Shown: one piece after another, positions 169-64,000 of the stretch | How the letters are laid out: every line of letters begins with the position of its first letter | How positions within the stretch are numbered: the first letter of the stretch is position 1 | Virus record (IMG/VR): IMGVR_UViG_3300037321_000115 | Source of the DNA: a virus | Taxonomy: Duplodnaviria > Heunggongvirae > Uroviricota > Caudoviricetes | DNA length: 64,000 bases | Reading direction: 5' to 3' (one strand) | Notes under the pieces: generated by a model | Told to the model about the DNA's origin: nothing | Seen by the model: only the letters and a program-made list of their open reading frames with translations | The model's database searches: none | Program-made: the position numbers and the translations under genes

Positions 169-379
169 CACCATCCTGCAGTGGATTGTAGCTCCCGTAG
201 CGGGTGCCGTCTGGATGCTGCACAACAAAACGCAGGCCAACACGACAGACATTGCTGTCATCAAGGCGCAAACTGCTGCAACCAAGGAAGCCTCTGACCG
301 TGAGTTTAAAGAGGTCAAGGAGAGCTTCAAGGCGGTCTTGGAAAAACTTGACAACATCGAGCAGCACTTGAGGACGTGA
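155..379 (+). CDS. Small membrane-anchored coiled-coil protein (lysis-cassette associated)
   Basis: N-terminal hydrophobic segment (ILQWIVAPVAGAVWML) followed by a heptad-like helix; located just upstream of the holin and endolysin. Confidence 0.6.
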   Translation: MDVLNTILQWIVAPVAGAVWMLHNKTQANTTDIAVIKAQTAATKEASDREFKEVKESFKAVLEKLDNIEQHLRT

Positions 380-380
380 T

Positions 381-866
381 GTGGACCCAGCTTCCGTAAC
401 CCTCGCGATAGGCGCAGCCAGTAAAGCGTTCTCGATGCTCAAGCATGGGTTTGAGGTTGGGCGCGATATTGAGTCTATGCACGGTGACATCCAAAAGTGG
501 ATGGGAGCGTCTACGCAAATCTCAGCGATTGAGAAGGCTACAAAAAACCCAAGCCTTATTTCTCGCCTGCGCACTGGGGCTGACAACATTGAGGCGATGG
601 CTACACAGGCGGTACTGGCGCGCAAGCAGATTGAGGCGCAACGCTACGAGCTGAAAGTGTGGGTGTCGATGACCTACGGCATAGGGGCGTGGGAGGAAAT
701 TCTGCGCACTGAAGGCCAGCTGCGCAAGCAGCGACAGGCAGCGATAGCAGCACAACATGCCTTCCTCGTAAAAGTGTTCCTTGGCGTGAGCCTTTTTGTT
801 ATACTCATCACAGGCGGTGGGCTGCTATACTTCTTCACCCTATTTTTGAAGGGCTTACAACAATGA
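381..866 (+). CDS. Conserved phage hypothetical protein with C-terminal transmembrane helix
   Basis: MDPASVTLAIGAASKAF start, C-terminal hydrophobic stretch, ATGA overlap with the next gene. Confidence 0.7.
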   Translation: MDPASVTLAIGAASKAFSMLKHGFEVGRDIESMHGDIQKWMGASTQISAIEKATKNPSLISRLRTGADNIEAMATQAVLARKQIEAQRYELKVWVSMTYGIGAWEEILRTEGQLRKQRQAAIAAQHAFLVKVFLGVSLFVILITGGGLLYFFTLFLKGLQQ

Positions 867-1345
867 AAAACCTGACAGCAATACTCGGAGCAGTAGCCCC
901 GACCCTCGCAACCGCGATAGGCGGCCCTCTAGGCGGCATGGCGCTTAGGCTGGTGGCTGACAAACTAGGACTTCCTGAATCGACCTTGGAAGCGGTGGAT
1001 GCAGCGGTGGCAAACGCTACCCCGGCTCAGCTGGCTGAGATCAAAAAAGTCGAGGCGGACTTCAAGGTCAGCATGAAACAGCTGGACGTGGACTTGGTGA
1101 AGATTGCCGCGGCAGACCGTGATAGCGCGCGCCGCCGACATGCTAGTGTCAAAGATATGACACCCACCGTCCTCGCCGTTGGAACGCTAATCGCGTTCTT
1201 TGGGTACGTCGGGGCGGTGACGTTCATCGACCACGGTGCCGATCTTGGCCTTATCAACGTCGCCGTAGGCTGGCTGGGTGGTAGCGCATCCGCTGTCATC
1301 TCGTTCTACTTCGGCGCTAGCAATACCCCGGAGAAAAACACATGA
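863..1345 (+). CDS. Holin (3TM, GTA-holin-like family)
   Basis: LGAVAPTLATAIGGPLGG N-terminus, ADRDSARRR motif, two C-terminal TM helices ending in SFYFGAS; adjacent to the endolysin. Confidence 0.75.
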   Translation: MKNLTAILGAVAPTLATAIGGPLGGMALRLVADKLGLPESTLEAVDAAVANATPAQLAEIKKVEADFKVSMKQLDVDLVKIAAADRDSARRRHASVKDMTPTVLAVGTLIAFFGYVGAVTFIDHGADLGLINVAVGWLGGSASAVISFYFGASNTPEKNT

Positions 1346-1794
1346 ACTTCAGACTTTCAGCGCGCAGCGTGAGCAACCTACAGGGCGTAGACGAGCAGCT
1401 CGTGGCAACTGTGGAGCTGGCGATCCTGACCACAAAGATTGATTTTGGCGTGATCTGCGGTGTCCGCACAATAGAAGAGCAGCGCGTGTTGGTCGACAAA
1501 GGCGCGAGCCAGACCATGCGCTCCAAGCACCTAGATGGCAAGGCTGTTGACCTGATGGCCTATATTGGCAGCCGGGGGTCGTGGGAACTGAACCTCTATG
1601 ACGACATCGCTGACGCCATGAAGGAGGCCGCTGTAGAGACGGGCGCTGTCCTGCGCTGGGGTGCCGCGTGGCATATACCAGACATCCGCAAATGGAGCGG
1701 CACAATGGAGCAAGCCATGAACGCCTATGTGGATTTGCGCCGCAGTCAGGGGAGGCGCCCATTCATAGACGGCCCTCACTTCGAGATACTGTAA
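1342..1794 (+). CDS. Endolysin, peptidase M15 family (L-Ala-D-Glu peptidase-like)
   Basis: GVRTIEEQ, SKHLDGKAVDL and DGPHFE Zn-binding motifs. Confidence 0.9.
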   Translation: MNFRLSARSVSNLQGVDEQLVATVELAILTTKIDFGVICGVRTIEEQRVLVDKGASQTMRSKHLDGKAVDLMAYIGSRGSWELNLYDDIADAMKEAAVETGAVLRWGAAWHIPDIRKWSGTMEQAMNAYVDLRRSQGRRPFIDGPHFEIL

Positions 1795-1819
1795 CCCAAA
1801 CCCACAAGGGGACACACCA

Positions 1820-1954
1820 ATGATGGCCAAAAATAAAAAGCCAATGAGCTACAAAAAGGGTGGTATGGTATTCAAACCGTGCCCCGGATGCCCGAACCCA
1901 ACCAAGTGCAAGGCTATGGGTAAGTGCATGAAGAAGGTGGGTGCGAAGAAGTGA
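1820..1954 (+). CDS. 44-aa basic Cys-rich protein (absent from the ORF track)
   Basis: Hand translation MMAKNKKPMSYKKGGMVFKPCPGCPNPTKCKAMGKCMKKVGAKK; the stop overlaps the GTG start of the next gene (GTGA at 1951-1954). Confidence 0.7.
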   Translation: MMAKNKKPMSYKKGGMVFKPCPGCPNPTKCKAMGKCMKKVGAKK

Positions 1955-4365
1955 CCGCCCTAAAGATCATCAACTTTCTTGGCGTCGTACCAAAGAACTC
2001 CGCGGAGTTATTGCCAGATACTGCTGCGCAAGTAGCTGAGAACTGCAAGCTCTACTCTGGTGATCTTATACCCTACCCGCTACCAGTCATCACCGCGAAC
2101 ACAGGGCGTACGGGAGAAACCCGTACGCTTTACGCGTTGCGCGACCCAGACACAGACGAACCCGTGTGGTTGTCGTGGCCCAACGACGTGGACATTGTCA
2201 CGCCTGCGGCAGACGAGATCAACGAGCAGCGGTTCTACTACGCAGGTGACGGCGTGCCGAAGGTTAGCACCTACGACCTTGCCACTACGGGCATAGCGCC
2301 GTACCCCACGGGGTTTTACGAGTTAGGGCTGCCGCTCCCAACAGCGACACCTACTGCAACTTCGACGCCGTTTACACCAGCGACATCGGCGAGCTTCGCG
2401 CGCGACGCTAGTAACAACGTGACGCTGGTCACAGCATCACCGCACAATCTCAAGACTGGTGCGTTCGCCACGATCTCTGGGTTTGCGTTCCGCACCGGTA
2501 CCTACAGCCAAGCAGGTAGCACGGTCACAGTAACAATCACCGGGCATGGCCTGACAACGGGCGCGCAAGTGTTTGTAGAGTTTACCAGTGGCGGCGCGCT
2601 GCCCGGCTCGTACAACGTCACGGTTGTTAGCGCGAACACCTTCACCACTGCTGCACCTGACTCCGCTACCCGGTCGGGCGACGCGCGGTGGGACATCCGC
2701 GACCTAAACATTACGGCTGACATCACAGTCGCAGACGCGACAACGATTACATACCGCGCAGCTGGCCCCGCTGTCACAACGACAGCCGACACAGCTGGCA
2801 AAGTCGATCTCGGCGGCGCGGTGCTTGCGCGCAACTACGCCTACACATGGTTCACCCCATGGCAGGAGGAGTCCGTGGGTTCCATCCCGTCCGAGCCGCT
2901 GTTCGTAAAAGAAGGGCAGATCACCACTGTTGCGGGGCTGCCGACTGCGCCCCCAGCGGGCACGTTCGTCCGTGGTATTAGACTGTACCGGTCCCTCGCA
3001 GGGGCGAATGGTACAAGCGAGTTCTTCCGGCTAGCTACCCTGTGGTTCCCTAACCCGCTGGCACGCGCGTCGCGCGCAGCAAATGTGTCTCGCGTACGGC
3101 TGGAGTCTCCACACAACTTGTTGGAAGGTGACCGGGTCAAGATCAGCGGCGCGGCCCCAGCGAGCTTTAACATAACTGGCGGTGTCGTCACGGCGCTCGT
3201 CGACCAGTACACGTTCGAGTACGCGCAGACAGCGGCTGATGTCGCAGATAATGCAGCCACTGGCACGCTTTATTATGACAGCGCGGAGCGCGCGGCGGAC
3301 CCGGCTCGGTACTGGGGCGACGGCGGCGTATACACCTTTACCGACAACTTCAGCTTCCGCAGCCTGCTGAACATCCTGTCAACAGATAACTACAACGCAC
3401 CGCCCGAAGACCTGCAAGGTCTGGCCGTCCTCAAGAACAACATTCTTGTGGGGTTTGCGGGTAACGACCTGTACTTCTCCGAGCCTGACAAGTTCCACGC
3501 GTGGCCGGTGGAATACAAGCGCTCGCTGGAACATAACATCGTCAAGATCGTCCCAATCGCTGGGGACCTACTCGTACTGACAGACAGCTACCCCTATTAC
3601 GTATCTGGTAGCGACCCACGGACGTTGTCGATTGACAAGGTGGACGCCCGATACCCATGCGTAAGCCGGCGCAGCGTCGCGTTGACCGCCGGTGGCGTTG
3701 TGTTCTCATCGCACGACGGGCTGATTACCATGGGGCCTATGGCTGGCCCGCAAGTCTTCTCTGCAAAAGTACACAGTAGCGATACATGGAACGCAGCACT
3801 CGACCCAGAAACCGTGGTGGGTGCTAACTACAAAGAGGTGTACTTCGCAGCGCACAGCGCGGGCTCTTTCGTTTACGAAGTGCTGGAGCGTGGCGCGTCT
3901 TTTGTAAACAGCGACTACACGTTCTCTGCTACGTGGTACGATCCACTGACAAATATCCTATACTACACCAGCGGTGAGAACGGCGATGTGTACCGTTGGG
4001 ATGATCCGACGCAGCCCACAGCTACATTGGAGTGGAAGTCCAAGGCTTTTATCACTCCGCTGTACACCAACGTAGGCGCGGCGCGCGTTGTAGCCGACTA
4101 CACCGGTGCGGTCTTCTCGTCTGTTTGGGACACTGCAGGTATCAACTGGGAAGCGGCAGAGGAGAACTGGGACCAAGACGACCCGCTGACGTTTAGCCTC
4201 TACGTTGACAAGCAGCTGGAGTTCACAACGACATTGGACAGCAGTGATACATTCCGCCTCCCTACTGGCTATAAGTCTGATACGTTTGAGTTTGGCGTGT
4301 CGGGTACGATCCGCGTGCGGTCGATCCACGTAGCTGAGACACCTTCAGCGTTGGTGCGTGTCTGA
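1951..4365 (+). CDS. Tail nozzle / DNA stabilization protein (P22 gp10 / tail tubular B-like) with inserted beta-domains
   Basis: Likely GTG start at 1951 (MTALKIINFLGVVPK...AENCKLYSGDL); beta-propeller-like C-terminal half (LYFSEP..FHAWP, CVSRRSV); located before the ejection proteins. Confidence 0.75.
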   Translation: MTALKIINFLGVVPKNSAELLPDTAAQVAENCKLYSGDLIPYPLPVITANTGRTGETRTLYALRDPDTDEPVWLSWPNDVDIVTPAADEINEQRFYYAGDGVPKVSTYDLATTGIAPYPTGFYELGLPLPTATPTATSTPFTPATSASFARDASNNVTLVTASPHNLKTGAFATISGFAFRTGTYSQAGSTVTVTITGHGLTTGAQVFVEFTSGGALPGSYNVTVVSANTFTTAAPDSATRSGDARWDIRDLNITADITVADATTITYRAAGPAVTTTADTAGKVDLGGAVLARNYAYTWFTPWQEESVGSIPSEPLFVKEGQITTVAGLPTAPPAGTFVRGIRLYRSLAGANGTSEFFRLATLWFPNPLARASRAANVSRVRLESPHNLLEGDRVKISGAAPASFNITGGVVTALVDQYTFEYAQTAADVADNAATGTLYYDSAERAADPARYWGDGGVYTFTDNFSFRSLLNILSTDNYNAPPEDLQGLAVLKNNILVGFAGNDLYFSEPDKFHAWPVEYKRSLEHNIVKIVPIAGDLLVLTDSYPYYVSGSDPRTLSIDKVDARYPCVSRRSVALTAGGVVFSSHDGLITMGPMAGPQVFSAKVHSSDTWNAALDPETVVGANYKEVYFAAHSAGSFVYEVLERGASFVNSDYTFSATWYDPLTNILYYTSGENGDVYRWDDPTQPTATLEWKSKAFITPLYTNVGAARVVADYTGAVFSSVWDTAGINWEAAEENWDQDDPLTFSLYVDKQLEFTTTLDSSDTFRLPTGYKSDTFEFGVSGTIRVRSIHVAETPSALVRV

Positions 4366-48925: not shown

Positions 48926-49248
48926 GCAACACGATCAGTGCTTCGATATTTCAGCTGGCGCTGCGTGGTGACACGCTTGCGCGGTGGACGTCGTTCAACC
49001 CAGTTCTTGCCGACCGCGAGATCGTGCTGGAGAAAGACACAGGGCAGTTTAAGATCGGGGACGGCACAACAGCCTACCTGAGCCTGCCCTATGGCGGCAT
49101 TGTTGGGCCTACAGGTCCGCAAGGCACGTCGATTGTTTTCAAAGGGTCAGTCACTACTGTCGAGGACTTGCCAACCGAGGGTAACGAGATCAACGACTCG
49201 TACCTCGTCGAGGCTGACGGAAATATTTATATCTGGGATGGTGTCTAA
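48922..49248 (+). CDS. Mtd_N / hyaluronidase-N-like fibre N-terminal domain protein
   Basis: [43 protein letters not shown], then GPTGPQG. Confidence 0.8.
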
Positions 49249-51644
49249 TGGCGTGGATCAATGCAGGTAGCGTAAGCGTCGGCCCGACTGGTCCAACAGG
49301 GGCACAGGGTATCCAAGGTATTGACGGTATCGACGGTATTGCTGGGCCAACGGGCCCTACCGGCGCTGACGGAACTCCCGGAGGTCCGACCGGACCCATT
49401 GGTGATTTAGGCCCTACCGGCCCAACGGGCCCTGCAGGCGCTGACGGCTCCGAAGGTACTGTAGGACCTACCGGCCCTCAGGGTGCTGACTCTACATTCG
49501 TTGGCCCGACCGGTCCGACCGGTCCGCAAGGTATTGACGGCCCTCAGGGTGCTGACTCTACAGTCGTTGGCCCAACAGGTCCTACCGGCGAAACGGGTCC
49601 GACTGGTGCTGACTCTACAGTCGCCGGTCCAACAGGTCCAAGTGGCACAGGCCCGACCGGCCCAACAGGACCTACCGGTGCTGACTCTACAGTCGTTGGT
49701 CCAACAGGACCTACTGGCGAAACGGGCCTCACCGGCCCTCAGGGTGCTGACTCTACAGTCGTTGGCCCGACAGGACCTACAGGCGAAACGGGCCTCACCG
49801 GCCCTACAGGCGCGGACTCTACAGTCGCTGGCCCAACAGGTCCTACCGGCGAAACGGGTCTCACTGGCCCTCAGGGTGCTGACTCTACAGTCGTTGGCCC
49901 AACAGGTCCTACAGGCGAAACGGGCCTCACCGGCCCTCAGGGTGCTGACTCTACAGTCGTTGGCCCAACAGGTCCGACCGGTCCGCAAGGTATTGACGGC
50001 ACCGCGGGCACGACTGGCCCCACAGGCCCGCAGGGTATTGGAGGTATTGACGGCACCGAGGGCCTGACCGGACCGACCGGCCCGCAGGGTGAGGACTCCA
50101 CAGTCGCTGGACCTACAGGCCCCACTGGTGGAGTGGCCGATATTGACACACACTTGAATACTTCCACGGCTGTAACCGGAGAGGTTTTGTCGTGGGACGG
50201 GGCGGACTACGATTGGATTGCCCCCGCTGGAGGCCCAACATTACAAGCAATCGCCTCTGGTACACTGCCAAATGGAGTGCCTGTAGTTATCAATCCAGAT
50301 GGTACTGTGAGTGCGGTTGGTCTTAGTTCTTCTGAAGCTGTCGTGTTCGAGAGTGCAAGTACCGACAACATCTCGGCCACCTTTGACAGCAACTCAAACA
50401 AAGTTGTCATTGCTTATAGAGACAATGGCAACTCCAGCTTCGGCACTGCCATTGTAGGAACTGTCAGTGGGACTTCAATCAGCTTCGGCACTCCTGTCGT
50501 GTTTGAAAGTGCATATACCGACAACATCTCGGCCACTTTTGATAGCAACTCAAACAAGGTCGTCATTGCTTATAGAGACTACCCCAACTCTCAATTCGGT
50601 ACTGCCGTTGTAGGGACTGTCAGTGGGACTTCAATCAGCTTCGGCACTCCTGTCGTGTTCGAGAGTGCAGCTACCACCAACATCACAATCACTTTTGACA
50701 GCAACTCAAACAAAGTCGTCATTGCTTATTCTGACGGTGGTAATTCCTACTTCGGCACTGCCATTGTAGGAACTGTCAGTGGGACTTCAATCAGCTTCGG
50801 CACTCCTGTCGTGTTCGAGAGTGCAAGTACCAACTACAGCTCAGCCACTTTTGACAGTTTCAACAACAAGGTCGTCATTGCTTATTCTTACGGTGGTAAT
50901 CCCTACTTCGGCACTGCCATTGTAGGAACTGTCAGTGGGACTTCAATCAGCTTCGGCACTACTGTCGTGTTCGAGAGTGCAAATACCAGCTACATCTCAG
51001 CCACTTTTGACAGCAACTCAAGCAAGGTCGTCATTGCTTATAGAGACTACCCCAATTCCAACTTCGGCACTGCCATTGTAGGTACTGTCAGTGGGACTTC
51101 AATCAGCTTCGGCACTCCTGTCGTGTTCGAGAGTGCAAATACCACCAACATCACAATCACTTTTGACAGCAACTCAAACAAAGTCGTCATTGCTTATAGA
51201 GACGCTGGCAATTCCAGCTTCGGCACTGCCGTTGTAGGGACTGTCAGCGGAACCTCAATCAGCTTTGGTACTGCTGTCGTGTTTGAAAGTGCAAGTACTG
51301 ACTTTATCTCGGCCACTTTTGATAGCAACTCAAACAAAGTTGTCATTGCTTATAGAGACGTGGGCAATTCCAGCTTCGGCACTGCTATTTCAATTGATAG
51401 CCTAGACGCTGTAGGAACAAATCTGACCACTGAGAACTACATTGGCTTTTCTGCTGGAGCCTACGCTGATGCTGCCACAGCTACTGTGCAAATTGGCGGT
51501 TCGGTAAATGAGTCACAGTCAGGCTTGGTAACGGCGCGGCGATACTTCGTGACCGGTACCGGCGCCTTAGCTACAACTCCGAGCATCCCAAATGTCTACG
51601 CAGGTCTAGCTGTAGCCACCACTAAAATCATTATAAAAGGATAA
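49248..51644 (+). CDS. Collagen-like fibre with C-terminal 52-aa repeat (beta-propeller-like) head
   Basis: About 290 aa of [10 protein letters not shown] collagen repeats, then seven 52-aa repeats. Confidence 0.85.
49280..50130 (+). repeat. Collagen G-X-Y coding repeats with recurrent GGTGCTGACTCTACAGTC units
   Basis: Eight ADST plus one EDST interruptions with near-identical DNA. Confidence 0.9.
50340..51390 (+). repeat. 156-nt coding tandem repeat, about 6.7 copies
   Basis: Units start at 50340, 50496, 50652, 50808, 50964, 51120 and 51276 (VVFESA...FGTP). Confidence 0.95.
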
Positions 51645-51650
51645 ACACAA

Positions 51651-51908
51651 ATGAAAACGCTCACCAAAGACAACCTGTCCCTCTACCTATTTGAAGATGA
51701 CAAACCACTGCTGATCGAAGCTGACAAAATTACTGTCAGTGATCCTGCCGAGTTTATCATCGGTGACTGCAGCAGCGAGAACACAGTCTTACATGAAGGT
51801 GTCACTGGCCCGGAAGATTGGACAGGTGGCAAGTACTTTTATGACGGTACAGACTTTACGCTGAATCCCAACTGGACTGATCCAGACACAGTAAATTATC
51901 TTTTGTAA
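51651..51908 (+). CDS. Small acidic protein following the fibre (possible fibre chaperone)
   Basis: PAEFIIGDCSSENTVLHEGVTGPEDWTGGKYFYDGTDFTLNPNW; its last codons may cross the compositional junction. Confidence 0.7.
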   Translation: MKTLTKDNLSLYLFEDDKPLLIEADKITVSDPAEFIIGDCSSENTVLHEGVTGPEDWTGGKYFYDGTDFTLNPNWTDPDTVNYLL

Positions 51909-52183
51909 TCTTGCCACTGAAGTAGATTTTACACATTACTACAAACCTATTTAATAAACAGTATTGTATTTGCCACAACACAAATGTTGTTTTTAAATTA
52001 TGTACATGAGAATGGCGTAGCATCAGAAAGCACGCCATTCAATAAATCACGTATCTTTAATATGCGAACAGGCAATACAAGAAGTTTCATGGATGTTGCA
52101 CTTCTGCAAAACTTAACATTATTACTTTTCCTGAATATCTATATAAACATACATATGTGCTGGATAACAGATATCCTATTTGT

Positions 52184-52191
52184 TATAAATA
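52184..52191 (+). promoter_or_regulatory. T4-type late promoter
   Basis: TATAAATA, about 30 nt upstream of the ATG at 52223. Confidence 0.8.
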
Positions 52192-52222
52192 GGACTAACA
52201 ACAAGAGTAGAAGGTTTCCACA

Positions 52223-52561
52223 ATGACAACAAGAGCAAATCTCTATGTAGATCAGGGAATTGATTTTCTACTTCGTCTTCAGATTACACTAGATGAAAAC
52301 ACCACAGAAGGTTTGACTTTCTACTCTAGTGCAAGAAAAGTTTATTCATCTGCTAAGTTGTTTGATGCCTCAGTTACAATAGAAGAAAATGGCGGTGGTG
52401 AAACAGTAGATTTGGACATTTTCATTGGAGCTGAAAAGACCGCCGATCTAGAACCTGGTAAATACCAGTACGATGTAATTTATACTAATCAAAATGGAAA
52501 TGTGAAAAAGTTACTGGAAGGCACTGTCCACATAATCCCAACTATCACAAGACCGGAGTAG
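52223..52561 (+). CDS. T4-like phage small virion structural protein
   Basis: ANLYVDQGIDF...GKYQYDV...KLLEGTVHIIPTITR pattern typical of T4-like myoviruses. Confidence 0.7.
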   Translation: MTTRANLYVDQGIDFLLRLQITLDENTTEGLTFYSSARKVYSSAKLFDASVTIEENGGGETVDLDIFIGAEKTADLEPGKYQYDVIYTNQNGNVKKLLEGTVHIIPTITRPE

Positions 52562-61252: not shown

Positions 61253-62053
61253 ATGTCAATTGTAAATCACTTCTATAACGGTTCTACTCGCCGTTACATT
61301 GCATTATTTGGATCTCTTTTTAATAAAATCTCTGTTACAAGAGATAATAATGGCAATGAAGAAGAGCAATTTATGGTAGTGCCTATTGCCTATGGCCCGT
61401 TCCAGAAATTTCTTGCTAGAGTAACACAAGATCCAGGACTGAATCGGCCACAAGCAATATCACTTCCTCGCATGGCGTTTGAAATTAATTCCATGTCTTT
61501 TGATGGTCAGCGTAAAACCAACTCGTTGAATAAACTGAGATCAACTTCAACCGACACTACGTTCATGTATTCTCCTGCTCCGTACAATTTAGAATTTACT
61601 CTTTACATTATGACCAAGCACGCAGAGGATGGCACAAAAATCTTGGAACAATTGCTTCCGTTCTTCAAGCCAGAATACACGTTTAGCGCAAGAATTATTG
61701 ACGATCTCCCAGCAATTGATATTCCTTTGATATTAAATTCTGTTTCCCTAGAAGACCTATATGAAGCAGACTTCGAAACGAGACGTTCGCTCATGTGGAC
61801 ACTTTCATTTACAATGAAGGGTTGGTTTTTTGGTCCGGAGAGATCTCGTGGTGTTGTAAAATTTGTCGATGTTAGAACACACAACGACGTAACACCAGAA
61901 GTTGCAACTTCTGGTCAGGTAACAGTCCAACCAGGACTGACAGTTGCAGGCGCACCTACTACCGACATCAACGAAACAATTGCATACGATGAAATAAATA
62001 TCGATGACGACTGGGGTGTGGTGCCATTGGTGAAGGACTATGAAGATGAATGA
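61253..62053 (+). CDS. gp15: T4-like tail sheath stabilizer / tail terminator
   Basis: HFYNGSTRRYIALFGSLFN, VPIAYGPFQKF, LPRMAFE, QLLPFFKP. Confidence 0.92.
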   Translation: MSIVNHFYNGSTRRYIALFGSLFNKISVTRDNNGNEEEQFMVVPIAYGPFQKFLARVTQDPGLNRPQAISLPRMAFEINSMSFDGQRKTNSLNKLRSTSTDTTFMYSPAPYNLEFTLYIMTKHAEDGTKILEQLLPFFKPEYTFSARIIDDLPAIDIPLILNSVSLEDLYEADFETRRSLMWTLSFTMKGWFFGPERSRGVVKFVDVRTHNDVTPEVATSGQVTVQPGLTVAGAPTTDINETIAYDEINIDDDWGVVPLVKDYEDE

Positions 62054-62510
62054 GAACCCAATAGATGCTGCACTTGGACTAAGGCCAATGGGTGATGCTC
62101 TAGCTGACGAGCGCTCCGCACCTACTGACGACTCAGACGTACTGCCTATATTGATTGATGACACCTCCAACATAGTGGTTCCTGTCAATGTAGAAGCGGA
62201 CGAGACATATAGAGACATCGAACAGGCAAGATCAAACATCAAAAATATTATAGAGAAGGGCGACGAATCTCTTAAAGAAATGATTGAGCTTGCTAAGCAA
62301 TCAGAGTCTCCAAGAGCGTTTGAAGTTGCATCCGGCCTGATGAAAACGCTTCTTGATGCAAACAAAGACTTTGTAGATATGTCTATGAAGAAAAAGTATC
62401 AAAGAGAAGAACTAACTGGATCTAAAGAACAAGCTCAGACGAATGTTACAAATAACAATTTGATAATATCTACTGCTGACCTGTTGAGGATGATGAAAGG
62501 TGAAACCTAA
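62040..62510 (+). CDS. gp16: T4-like terminase small subunit
   Basis: QSESPRAFEVASGLMK, TNVTNNNLIISTADL. Confidence 0.9.
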   Translation: MKMNENPIDAALGLRPMGDALADERSAPTDDSDVLPILIDDTSNIVVPVNVEADETYRDIEQARSNIKNIIEKGDESLKEMIELAKQSESPRAFEVASGLMKTLLDANKDFVDMSMKKKYQREELTGSKEQAQTNVTNNNLIISTADLLRMMKGET

Positions 62511-62559: not shown

Positions 62560-63447
62560 ATGACAGAAGGTTATCTTGGAAACCAACACCTCAAGAAGTC
62601 TGGTACCGCAATTGAATGGACGCCGGAATTACTACAAGAGTACATGAAATGTGCCAACGATCCGGTATATTTTGCCAAGACATATATAAAAATTGTGCAC
62701 GTAGACAAAGGGCTTATACCGTTTGAAATGTACGGTTACCAAGAGGAAATTGTCCGTAAAATTACAGATAATAGAAGAGTTGCGGTGTTGACAGCAAGGC
62801 AAAGTGGCAAAACCACAACTGCCGCAGCCGTGATTCTACACTATATTCTATTTAACGAATATAAGACAGCAGCAATCCTTGCAAATAAAGGTGACTCTGC
62901 AAGAGAAGTTCTCAATAGAATTCAGCTTGCGTACGAGGCGCTTCCTAGGTGGCTACAGCAAGGTGTAGAGGAGTGGAACAAAGGCTCTATAGAATTAGAA
63001 AACGGTTGTAAGATATATGCGGGCACTACGTCATCAAGTGCAATTCGAGGCAAGTCAATCTCGTTTCTGTATCTCGACGAGGTCGCGTTTATCGAAGGGT
63101 ACGATGAATTCTTCGCCTCCGTTTATCCTACAATTTCGTCCGGTGAGACAACAAAATTATTAATGACTTCAACTCCAAATGGCATTAACCACTATTGGAA
63201 AACCTGTAAAGGTGCAGAGGAAGGCACCAACGGATATGAGTTTGTACGTGTTATGTGGAATGATGTCCCAGGCAGAGGCGAAGCTTGGAAACAGGAAACT
63301 CTCGAAGCTCTTGATCACGACCAAGACAAGTTTGCGCAAGAATATTGCTGCGTGAAGGGCAACACTCAAATCACCATAAGAGACAAAGAAACAGGCGAGA
63401 TAAAAACGATCTTCATAGAAGAACTTTATGAAAATTTGCACTTGTGA
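62560..63447 (+). CDS. gp17: T4-like terminase large subunit, N-terminal (ATPase) fragment ending in a 32-aa N-intein
   Basis: YLGNQHLK, ARQSGKTT, YLDEVAF, STPNG; then FAQEYC|CVKGNTQITI...ELYENLHL-stop. Confidence 0.92.
   Translation: MTEGYLGNQHLKKSGTAIEWTPELLQEYMKCANDPVYFAKTYIKIVHVDKGLIPFEMYGYQEEIVRKITDNRRVAVLTARQSGKTTTAAAVILHYILFNEYKTAAILANKGDSAREVLNRIQLAYEALPRWLQQGVEEWNKGSIELENGCKIYAGTTSSSAIRGKSISFLYLDEVAFIEGYDEFFASVYPTISSGETTKLLMTSTPNGINHYWKTCKGAEEGTNGYEFVRVMWNDVPGRGEAWKQETLEALDHDQDKFAQEYCCVKGNTQITIRDKETGEIKTIFIEELYENLHL
63349..63444 (+). mobile_element. Split intein N-fragment (IntN, 32 aa)
   Basis: Starts with Cys1 in a block-A-like CVKGNTQI and ends with IFIEELYE; stop codon follows. 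Confidence 0.88.
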
Positions 63448-63458
63448 ATTCCTCGATT

Positions 63459-63466
63459 TATAAATA
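63459..63466 (+). promoter_or_regulatory. T4-type late promoter inside the fractured gp17 locus
   Basis: TATAAATA 11 nt after the gp17-N stop codon. Confidence 0.8.
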
Positions 63467-63542
63467 AAATAGGATGGAGATGAGAAAACACACGTGTACA
63501 AATCGCGGCGAACGACTCCAGAAGAAAGAATAGAGGAGATTT

Positions 63543-63564
63543 AACGAGAAGTCCGCTTCTCGTT
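63543..63564 (+). other. Perfect 9-bp hairpin in the spacer between the intein halves
   Basis: AACGAGAAG-TCCG-CTTCTCGTT. Confidence 0.75.
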
Positions 63565-63650
63565 CTGTGGCGCGCTGAAACATGTGATGTGGTGCCGGCT
63601 GCTATAAGAACAACACCATAGAGAAAAGGCATTCCCACAAAGGACCTACC

Positions 63651-64000
63651 ATGACGAAAAAGAACAACACCCAGTATGAAATACTAACGGACAGTGGATG
63701 GGCGGATTTTCACGGTGTGTATAAAAAAACCACTACCGGTATAGTAACCATTGTAGATGAAATCGGCAATCTATTAGAATGTACGCTGGATCATAAAATA
63801 GAGACTGAAGCAGGGTTTATACAAGCGCAGAATTTATATATAGGATCGAGATTGAAAACGAAGAGCGGCTATTCGAGAGTAGCAAATCTTTCTATAGATA
63901 AGAATGAAACTGCGGATGTATACGATGCGCTTGAAGTGAGCAACGGCCACAAATATTATACTAATAATATGATATCTCATAACTGCGAATTCCTTGGCAG
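63651..64000 (+). CDS. gp17: Split intein C-fragment (IntC, 111 aa) fused to the gp17 C-terminal part (truncated by the window edge; absent from the ORF track)
   Basis: AAGGA RBS; hand translation MTKKNNTQYEILTDSGWADFHGV...CTLDHKI (block B)...VYDALEV (block F)...MISHN|CEFLG, ending in His-Asn with a +1 Cys. Confidence 0.9.
   Translation, partial: MTKKNNTQYEILTDSGWADFHGVYKKTTTGIVTIVDEIGNLLECTLDHKIETEAGFIQAQNLYIGSRLKTKSGYSRVANLSIDKNETADVYDALEVSNGHKYYTNNMISHNCEFLG

What the first reader, a model, noticed from the sequence alone, without database searches (positions are those of the whole stretch)
62560..64000. Terminase gp17 fractured by a naturally, atypically split intein
Seen in the sequence: gp17-N ends FAQEYC|CVKGNTQITIRDKETGEIKTIFIEELYENLHL-stop (32-aa IntN starting with Cys1). 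After a 203-nt spacer, a separate ORF with its own RBS (missed by the ORF track) encodes 111 aa containing block B (TLDH), block F (VYDALEV) and a terminal SHN, followed by CEFLG. Splicing would restore QEYC-CEFLG, the conserved T4-type terminase motif near the ATPase-nuclease linker. Established knowledge: the very short IntN with long IntC is the 'atypical' split seen in the AceL-TerL/GOS-TerL family, valued for protein trans-splicing because IntN can be chemically synthesised. DNA packaging in this phage would then depend on trans-splicing of two separately translated chains. This looks like a further natural member with a usable, endonuclease-free pair.
Basis: partly seen in the sequence, partly recalled or inferred. 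Interest (0 to 1): 0.9.

Follow-up and report, generated by a model that had tools for sequence, protein, structure and literature searches.

The report
Split intein in phage terminase gene
A T4-like phage encodes its DNA-packaging motor as two genes whose products are most likely joined by a two-piece self-splicing element of a well-known, very common type; here the nuclease gene that usually sits between the halves has been lost.

Summary
TerL-N (62560-63447) ends QEYC followed by a 32-aa IntN and TGA. After a 203-nt spacer, a second ORF (ATG 63651) encodes a 111-aa IntC ending SHN, then CEFLG. It is not an assembly error: five public contigs encode the identical N-half, and all three read have the same stop, spacer and restart. 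Both fragments match the solved consensus atypical TerL intein (PDB 6DSL): CatC E 1.2e-7, CatN by profile E 2.4e-6, with the same insertion site and split point. The exteins are exactly colinear with uninterrupted TerLs, and intein-free relatives read QEYC-CEFLGSS, the predicted ligation product.

It is not new in kind. The atypically split gp17 intein was described in 2009 and shown to splice in 2014-15. Here about 55 related N-half clusters and 48 IntC-first clusters share the layout, as do cultured phages. This scan has already reported it in at least 93 other genomes.

The one local addition is that the closest relatives carry a GIY-YIG endonuclease gene between the halves. The window's spacer keeps that gene's late promoter and frameshifted start, so it is a deletion scar. 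Splicing activity is untested.

The parts
62040..62510 (+). gp16-like small terminase gene directly upstream (context)
   Evidence: Weak Pfam DNA_Packaging match, E 1.2e-4, below the cut-off. It sits between gp15 (PF16724, E 1.5e-69) and TerL, as in phiM12.
62560..63348 (+). TerL N-extein (263 aa, ATPase part), ending ...FAQEYC
   Evidence: Terminase_6N E 1.8e-24. 63% identical to phiM12 TerL residues 7-265 without gaps.
63349..63447 (+). IntN: 32 codons starting with Cys1, then TGA (63445-63447)
   Evidence: Homologous IntN tails of 30-38 aa followed by a stop occur in about 55 related clusters. A profile of these tails hits 6DSL chain A (CatN) at E 2.4e-6.
63448..63650 (+). 203-nt spacer without a gene; read as the deletion scar of a GIY-YIG homing endonuclease gene
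   Evidence: No Rfam match and fold z -0.9. The 5' end aligns with the post-IntN region and endonuclease start of L014, L015 and L017. The 3' end is weakly like the endonuclease C-terminus.
63459..63466 (+). TATAAATA, a T4-type late-promoter motif (consensus from my own knowledge) retained from the lost endonuclease gene; likely promoter for the C-half
   Evidence: 5 copies in the window against 0.63 expected, 0 of 100 shuffles reach 5. Copies at 52184 and 58361 lie 13-32 nt before gene starts. The motif is conserved at this position in L014, L015 and L017.
63471..63515 (+). Remnant of the endonuclease start: AGGA, then ATG (63480) with a 2-nt frameshift, opening only a 17-codon ORF
   Evidence: Alignment A3 against the ATG-AAA-AC.-TAT-GTA-TAT... 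starts of the relatives' GIY-YIG genes; translation.
63543..63564 (+). Perfect 9-bp hairpin with a 4-nt loop, no T-run; role unknown
   Evidence: Not picked up as a terminator.
63640..63644 (+). Shine-Dalgarno-like AAGGA, 6 nt before the IntC start codon
   Evidence: Sequence.
63651..63983 (+). IntC: 111 codons with block B T45-L-D-H48, block F VYDALEV, block G S-H110-N111
   Evidence: Best PDB hit is 6DSL chain B (CatC), E 1.2e-7, aligned end to end. 1,078 representative clusters match.
63984..64000 (+). Start of the TerL C-extein (Cys+1, EFLG...), cut by the window end
   Evidence: In L001 the ORF continues for 270 aa (P0001). It is 61% identical to phiM12 TerL residues 267-517 and is followed by the tail sheath gene.

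Best explanation
The large terminase of this T4-like phage is encoded as two polypeptides: a 263-aa ATPase part fused to a 32-aa IntN, and a 111-aa IntC fused to a 270-aa nuclease part. IntN and IntC are the two pieces of a class-1 (Cys1/Cys+1) intein of the AceL-TerL/GOS-TerL/Cat family. It is split at the atypical 'S2' position, after the first helix. The short IntN docks into the nearly complete IntC to finish the HINT fold. The intein then excises itself and ligates the exteins into a 533-aa TerL reading ...QEYC-CEFLGSS... at the end of the ATPase domain. Shown here: the anatomy, homology to the solved family, the same insertion and split sites, extein colinearity, recurrence in independent assemblies, and purifying selection. 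Inferred: fragment association (model only), trans-splicing, and that packaging depends on it. The intein-plus-endonuclease unit is a selfish element. In the closest relatives a free-standing GIY-YIG/NUMOD3 endonuclease gene lies between the halves. In this phage most of it was deleted, leaving its late promoter, its ribosome-binding site, a frameshifted start and probably a decayed 3' end. The C-half is then probably expressed from that retained promoter, or by read-through from upstream, using its own AAGGA ribosome-binding site.
For: Anatomy. Independent assemblies share the stop, 203-nt spacer and restart. CatC is the best PDB hit of IntC (E 1.2e-7, end to end). CatN is the best PDB hit of the IntN profile (E 2.4e-6), including the N-extein EFE and ending at the same ...LY..L point. 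PMC13014065 places AceL and GOS TerL at the split after helix alpha-1. The exteins abut exactly on phiM12 TerL, Y265/N266 and N267/E268. Intein-free relatives read QEYC-CEFLGSS (P0172, P0170). About 55 of the top 120 N-half clusters end in a 30-38-aa IntN plus stop. 48 of the top 150 IntC clusters are IntC-first at this site. Synonymous sites are saturated against relatives while the catalytic motifs are intact; where computable, dN/dS is 0.16-0.18 for IntN and IntC. Complex model of IntC plus N-extein/IntN: score 0.76, best of 3 controls 0.00. That mark was reached by 51 of 78 solved complexes and 2 of 108 mismatched pairs. The runs agree in at least 91% of contacts and the partner pLDDT is at least 74. 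Contacts place Cys1-Val-Lys next to T45-H48 and H110-C112. A like complex (6DSL) is solved, so this pass shows likeness and may come from memory. Endonuclease scar: relatives L014, L015/L016 and L017 carry a 229-231-aa GIY-YIG gene between the halves. The conserved TATAAATA and endonuclease start align to the window's spacer. C-terminal similarity has permutation p of 6/500 to 35/500 for four of five relatives. Cultured, plaque-forming phages carry the same family of split TerL inteins, so the design is compatible with viable phages.
Against: No biochemical or proteomic evidence of splicing for this copy. Raw reads could not be examined, so support for the stop and spacer rests on assemblies. 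These may share assembler behaviour, though they come from different samples and differ by SNPs. The IntN alone has no significant single-sequence hit in the PDB. The promoter motif lies 184 nt from the IntC start, further than at the other two genes. The 3' half of the 'scar' is supported only weakly, and one relative (L008) shows no similarity.
Confidence: 0.9

Rival explanations
1. Assembly or sequencing artefact: the intein is really contiguous, or the gene uninterrupted, and the stop plus spacer were introduced by misassembly.
For: The window comes from a metagenome-type contig with an abrupt GC change near 50-52 kb. Reads could not be inspected.
Against: Five contigs carry the identical N-half. 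The three read (IMG/VR, ENA, Logan) show the same TGA, 203-nt spacer and ATG, with SNPs elsewhere. Dozens of diverged relatives stop at the same point of the intein. The IntN-IntC boundary equals that of the solved natural-family consensus.
Confidence: 0.02
2. A dead gene: the split or the loss of the endonuclease left a non-functional terminase in a defective phage or decaying element, and the fragments no longer splice.
For: The spacer is pseudogene debris. One relative (L018) shows a fragmented endonuclease and a broken C-half ORF.
Against: Cys1, TxxH, block F, HN and Cys+1 are all intact. dN/dS is about 0.17 where measurable, and synonymous sites are saturated with motifs conserved. Both exteins are full length and 61-63% identical to a cultured phage's TerL. 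The identical protein occurs in several samples on contigs up to 264 kb. No second TerL of this type was seen next to it.
Confidence: 0.05
3. The halves work as a non-covalent two-subunit terminase held together by the intein fragments, without ligation, as with the split NrdA of phage Aeh1 that Dassa et al. cite.
For: Gene-in-pieces enzymes that assemble without splicing exist (discussion in PMC2677866). The model shows a tight IntN-IntC interface.
Against: All residues needed only for chemistry, not for binding (Cys1, His of block B, terminal Asn, Cys+1), are conserved across the whole family. Characterised family members do splice (review PMC11766414).
Confidence: 0.03

Closest known systems
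AceL-TerL, GOS-TerL and their consensus Cat (PDB 6DSL): naturally, atypically split TerL inteins (Thiel 2014; Bachmann and Mootz 2015; review PMC11766414; PMC13014065)
   Same: Same host protein and insertion site (QE[FY]x | C-E...). Same split point after the first helix. IntN and IntC lengths are in range: 32/111 here against 25/104, 37/115 and 30/104. Cys1/Cys+1 as in AceL and Cat. Both fragments have Cat as their best solved match.
   Different: Only about 30-35% identical to CatC by eye over the alignment (HMMER prints no identity figure). Cys rather than Glu at extein position -1. Activity, rate and temperature optimum are unknown. The AceL and GOS sequences themselves were not available to me, so the comparison runs through their consensus.
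'Fractured genes' of Dassa et al. 2009 (PMC2677866), including the Lake Gatun gp17 terminase locus and the endonuclease-free gp41-7 locus
   Same: A Myoviridae-type gp17 broken at an unusual point, with a long C-terminal intein part that holds all motifs except N1. Regulatory elements lie between the halves. An endonuclease-free variant was already reported for another gene.
   Different: Here the gap is a 203-nt remnant instead of an endonuclease gene. Close relatives with an intact gene (L014, L015, L017) or a fragmented one (L018) allow the loss to be traced.
Split TerL inteins of cultured phages: Vibrio phage VP-1 (Ackermannviridae), Salmonella phage SEA1 (Gelderlandvirus), Campylobacter phage CP30A (Fletchervirus)
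   Same: Same intein family, about 35% identity to the window's IntC, with a short IntN and long IntC. VP-1's second intein is at the window's site (QEYD | CSFLGS).
   Different: In VP-1 the IntN ORF continues into a GIY-YIG domain. SEA1 and CP30A are split at the Walker B site (IDE | CAF). SEA1 has a TnsA/EndoI-like nuclease ORF between the halves. CP30A's halves lie about 24 kb apart on opposite strands.

Membership tests
Atypically (S2) split TerL inteins (AceL-TerL / GOS-TerL / Cat) | Class-1 intein catalytic set: Cys/Ser1, block B TxxH, block F, terminal HN, Cys+1 | tested here: met
   Cys1 at 63349, T45-L-D-H48, VYDALEV, S-H-N111, Cys+1 at 63984. These positions align with CatC and with relatives.
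Atypically (S2) split TerL inteins (AceL-TerL / GOS-TerL / Cat) | Split after the first helix: IntN of 25-37 aa and IntC of 104-122 aa on separate ORFs | tested here: met
   IntN 32 aa ending ...EELYENLHL; IntC 111 aa. CatN ends at the aligned ...DLYQRL. The CatC alignment starts at residue 2 of the IntC ORF. Published ranges.
Atypically (S2) split TerL inteins (AceL-TerL / GOS-TerL / Cat) | Host and insertion site: T4-type TerL at QE[YF]x | C[EQS]FLGS | tested here: met
   Terminase_6N. Junction colinear with phiM12 TerL. The 6DSL chains carry N-extein EFE and C-extein CE. The AceL and GOS sequences themselves were not seen.
Atypically (S2) split TerL inteins (AceL-TerL / GOS-TerL / Cat) | Significant sequence similarity of both fragments to a characterised member | tested here: met
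   IntC against 6dsl_B, E 1.2e-7. An IntN profile (49 natural tails, the window's first) against 6dsl_A, E 2.4e-6, top hit. The single IntN sequence alone gave no hit.
Atypically (S2) split TerL inteins (AceL-TerL / GOS-TerL / Cat) | The two fragments associate into one HINT fold | tested here: inconclusive
   The model supports binding: score 0.76, best control 0.00. The mark was reached by 51 of 78 solved complexes and 2 of 108 mismatched pairs. Runs agree in at least 91% of contacts; partner pLDDT is at least 74. Because 6DSL is solved, the pass may reflect memory of a like complex.
Atypically (S2) split TerL inteins (AceL-TerL / GOS-TerL / Cat) | Protein trans-splicing activity | not testable with these tools
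   Needs expression of both halves and detection of the ligated product.
Fractured gene sensu Dassa 2009 (split intein halves with a free-standing homing endonuclease gene between them) | An endonuclease ORF between IntN and IntC | tested here: not met
   Only 203 nt. The longest sense-strand ORF there is 17 codons. Only remnants of a GIY-YIG gene are detectable. The closest relatives do meet the feature.
Contiguous mini-intein | One uninterrupted reading frame through the intein | tested here: not met
   The TGA at 63445 and the spacer are present in the three independent contigs read.

The most novel reading that the evidence does not exclude
The split may no longer be just tolerated selfish debris. 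After losing its endonuclease, the element may have been domesticated. The C-half would be made from its own late promoter, inherited from the lost endonuclease gene. The cluster of three adjacent cysteines at the junction (Cys-1, Cys1, Cys+1) could make ligation of the packaging motor depend on timing or redox state. Intein assembly would then act as a post-translational switch for the onset of DNA packaging.
Probability: 0.06. Interest if true: 0.55.

Novelty: new member of a known kind. Interest (0 to 1): 0.25.

Why it matters
It adds one more natural Cys1/Cys+1 short-IntN split intein to a family already used for protein semisynthesis, where a 25-35-aa IntN can be made chemically. That practical value is modest, because hundreds of natural homologues and an optimised consensus (Cat) exist. 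The more useful point is evolutionary. This lineage offers a graded natural series at one site: uninterrupted TerL, split intein with an intact GIY-YIG gene, split intein with a fragmented gene, and split intein with a 203-nt scar. The series documents the endonuclease-loss step in the published model for how stable split inteins arise. For annotation, such TerL halves should be called as one spliced product. The IntC-first ORF is easily missed or mis-started.

Tried and rejected
- The window's own genome is not held, and the nearest record G001 has no match to the locus.
- Rfam found nothing in or around the spacer. The spacer as a whole does not fold better than shuffles (z -0.9). No terminator-like site was called in it.
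- The single 32-aa IntN gave only spurious PDB hits. A profile was needed.
- A first tblastn of five endonucleases against the spacer was not significant on its own. Only closer relatives gave a usable alignment, and the 3' part remains weak.
- NG86 dS was saturated for most pairs, so only two dN/dS values per fragment class are usable.
- Nucleotide search of deposited phages found only TerL extein similarity of 65-68%. No deposited phage is a close relative.
- The IMG/VR contig does not span the GC junction near 51 kb, so possible chimerism of the window's left part stays open. It does not touch this locus.
- The GOS-TerL paper (PMC4661395) is not held, so the AceL and GOS sequences were compared only through their consensus.

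Full report
**Observation.** An ORF at 62560-63447 (295 aa) carries a T4-type terminase ATPase domain (Pfam Terminase_6N, E 1.8e-24). It ends ...FAQEYC, then 32 residues beginning with Cys (63349-63444) and TGA. After 203 nt, preceded by AAGGA 6 nt upstream, an ATG at 63651 opens an ORF. Its first 111 residues contain TLDH, VYDALEV and a terminal SHN. They are followed by CEFLG, where the window ends. Pfam sees a HINT domain there (PT-HINT E 5e-6, just below its cut-off). Upstream lie gp15 and a gp16-like gene, the usual T4-type order.

**Is it real?** Raw reads could not be consulted and the window's own assembly is not held. Independent assemblies answer the question instead. An IMG/VR contig (L001) is about 99% identical with scattered SNPs. 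It has the same TGA, the same 203-nt spacer and the same restart. The exact 295-aa N-half occurs on five public contigs. The two shown, from ENA and Logan samples, each have a 381-aa ORF starting 203 nt downstream. L001 supplies what the window lacks: the second ORF is 381 aa, made of the 111-aa IntC and 270 aa of TerL C-terminal half, and is followed by the tail sheath gene.

**What is it?** The best solved-structure match of the second ORF is 6DSL chain B, 'Consensus engineered intein CatC' (E 1.2e-7). The alignment runs from residue 2 to the C-extein, with block B and the terminal SH(N/A)-CE in register. The 32-aa IntN alone is too short for a significant hit. A profile of 49 natural IntN tails, with the window's sequence as first row, finds 6DSL chain A, CatN, as top hit (E 2.4e-6). 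That alignment covers the N-extein EFE and ends at the same ...LY..L point. Cat is the consensus of the AceL-TerL and GOS-TerL family (review PMC11766414). PMC13014065 places those inteins at the 'S2' split, after the first helix, which is where the window's IntN ends. The complex model of IntC with N-extein/IntN supports association: score 0.76, best of 3 controls 0.00. That mark was reached by 51 of 78 solved complexes and 2 of 108 mismatched pairs. The runs agree in at least 91% of contacts and the partner pLDDT is at least 74. The contacts put Cys1 beside T45-H48 and H110-C112. Because 6DSL is solved, this pass shows likeness and may come from memory.

**Extein check.** The N-half aligns without gaps to phiM12 TerL up to Y265 (63% identity). 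The C-half resumes at residue 267 (61% identity). So QEY-C | C-EFLGSS is colinear with phiM12's QEY-N-N-EFLGSS. Intein-free relatives of the same lineage read QEYC-CEFLGSS (P0172, 81% identical; also P0170), which is exactly the predicted ligation product. The spliced TerL would be 533 aa, against 543 aa in phiM12 and 547 aa in P-TIM68.

**How common is it?** An exhaustive HMMER search with the IntC ORF found 1,078 representative clusters at E <= 1e-3 and 240 at <= 1e-10. Of the best 150, 48 are IntC-first proteins followed by a C.FLGS-type extein (the window's site). Another 17 are followed by CAFI (Walker B site), and many contiguous TerLs carry two to four inteins. A search with the N-half gave 1,967 hits. 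About 55 of the top 120 clusters (57-86% identical) end in a 30-38-aa IntN and a stop. Cultured phages have it too. Vibrio phage VP-1 carries a split at the same site, with IntN running into a GIY-YIG domain, plus a contiguous intein in the P-loop. Salmonella phage SEA1 and Campylobacter phage CP30A are split at the Walker B site. Dassa et al. 2009 already described a Myoviridae-type gp17 'fractured at an unusual point' with a long C-terminal part, and one split locus without an endonuclease. This scan's own notes hold 113 findings on such terminase split inteins in at least 93 genomes.

**The spacer.** It has no Rfam match and no unusual overall fold. It does contain TATAAATA, which I recall as the T4 late-promoter consensus. 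The motif occurs 5 times in the window against 0.63 expected, and two other copies lie 13-32 nt upstream of gene starts. The closest relatives with context (L014, L015/L016, L017; N-halves 79-83% identical) all have a 229-231-aa GIY-YIG/NUMOD3 gene. It starts 45-52 nt after the IntN stop and overlaps the IntC start. More distant relatives carry GIY-YIG, DUF559 or faint NUMOD3 ORFs. L018 has a fragmented GIY-YIG gene. Aligning the region after the IntN stop shows clear homology. The relatives share ...GAATT..T.GG-TTATAAATA and then the endonuclease start (M-K-T-Y-V-Y-L-I-T-R). The window keeps the motif, an AGGA, and an ATG followed by a 2-nt frameshift and recognisable remains of those codons. 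The spacer frame that ends in the ATGA overlap with the IntC start resembles the last ~45 residues of the endonucleases, including ...TPAAI(K/R). The support is weak: 6/500, 10/500, 32/500 and 35/500 permutations reach the observed score for four relatives, and there is no signal for a fifth. I read the spacer as the scar of an internal deletion of about 500 nt in a GIY-YIG gene. The 5' part is well supported and the 3' part is tentative.

**Is it alive?** Against the closest relatives, synonymous sites are saturated. Where dS is computable (L015), dN/dS is 0.16 for IntN and 0.18 for IntC, and all catalytic positions are conserved. The intein is much more diverged (44-62% amino-acid identity) than the exteins in the same pairs (64-86%). 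That fits a mobile or faster-evolving element.

**Verdict.** This is a genuine, atypically split TerL intein of the AceL/GOS/Cat family, lacking its endonuclease. It is a new member of a known and very abundant kind, so interest is low to moderate.

Noticed in passing
window 49000-52500: GC falls from about 0.60 (44-50 kb) to about 0.38-0.42 (52-64 kb). The independent IMG/VR contig matches the window at 99% only from 51,413 onward and ends there, right after the 156-nt repeat array that another note places at 50340-51390. The window may be a chimeric join, or the other assembly may simply break at the repeats. This is unresolved and does not affect the intein locus.
   Followed up: partly
L002 (Vibrio phage VP-1, MH363700.1) 337-3679: TerL carries two inteins of this family. 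One is a contiguous mini-intein in the Walker A loop (RQSGK | C...SHN | TT). The other is an atypically split one at the window's site, whose IntN ORF continues into a GIY-YIG domain (Pfam E 2.9e-6). The IntC ORF really starts near 2402-2500, upstream of the annotated start at 2642.
   Followed up: partly
L003 2498-3826 and L020 1483-2199 (Campylobacter phage CP30A, JX569801.1): The TerL halves are about 24 kb apart on opposite strands. The N-half (238 aa) ends IFIDE | CVAGDT...YNRIG-stop, a 31-aa IntN at the Walker B site. The C-half begins with the IntC directly after the gp13 neck gene. This is a cultured phage whose terminase should require trans-splicing. A 2012 paper on a related phage mentions an intein in TerL but not this layout.
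   Followed up: partly
L004 1004-3862 (Salmonella phage SEA1, OQ927978.1): TerL is split at the Walker B site (IYIDE | C...SHN | CAFIPNF), with a 206-aa TnsA-like/endonuclease-I-like ORF between the halves (Pfam E 2.3e-10). That ORF is annotated only as a hypothetical protein.
   Followed up: partly
L018 985-2854: In a relative with an 84% identical N-half, the inter-half GIY-YIG gene is fragmented (52-aa and 106-aa ORFs) and the IntC-TerL-C ORF is itself broken (153 + 228 aa). This is either a decaying locus or sequencing errors.
   Followed up: no
window 63349-63983 against L014, L015, L017: The intein fragments are 44-62% identical between lineages whose flanking exteins are 64-86% identical. 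This suggests intein exchange between TerL alleles, or faster evolution of the intein.
   Followed up: partly
window 52184, 58361, 63459 (+); 55932 (+); 49224 (-): TATAAATA is eight-fold enriched in the window. Three of the five copies are intergenic and all lie in the AT-rich T4-like part or at its edge, consistent with T4-type late promoters in this phage.
   Followed up: partly
L010 667-1257; L014 1893-2501; L017 1909-2508: phiM12 and two close relatives have an extra ORF of about 200 aa (annotated gp17.2 in phiM12, with faint Terminase_6N hits) between gp16 and TerL. The window has none: gp16 ends at 62510 and TerL starts at 62560.
   Followed up: no
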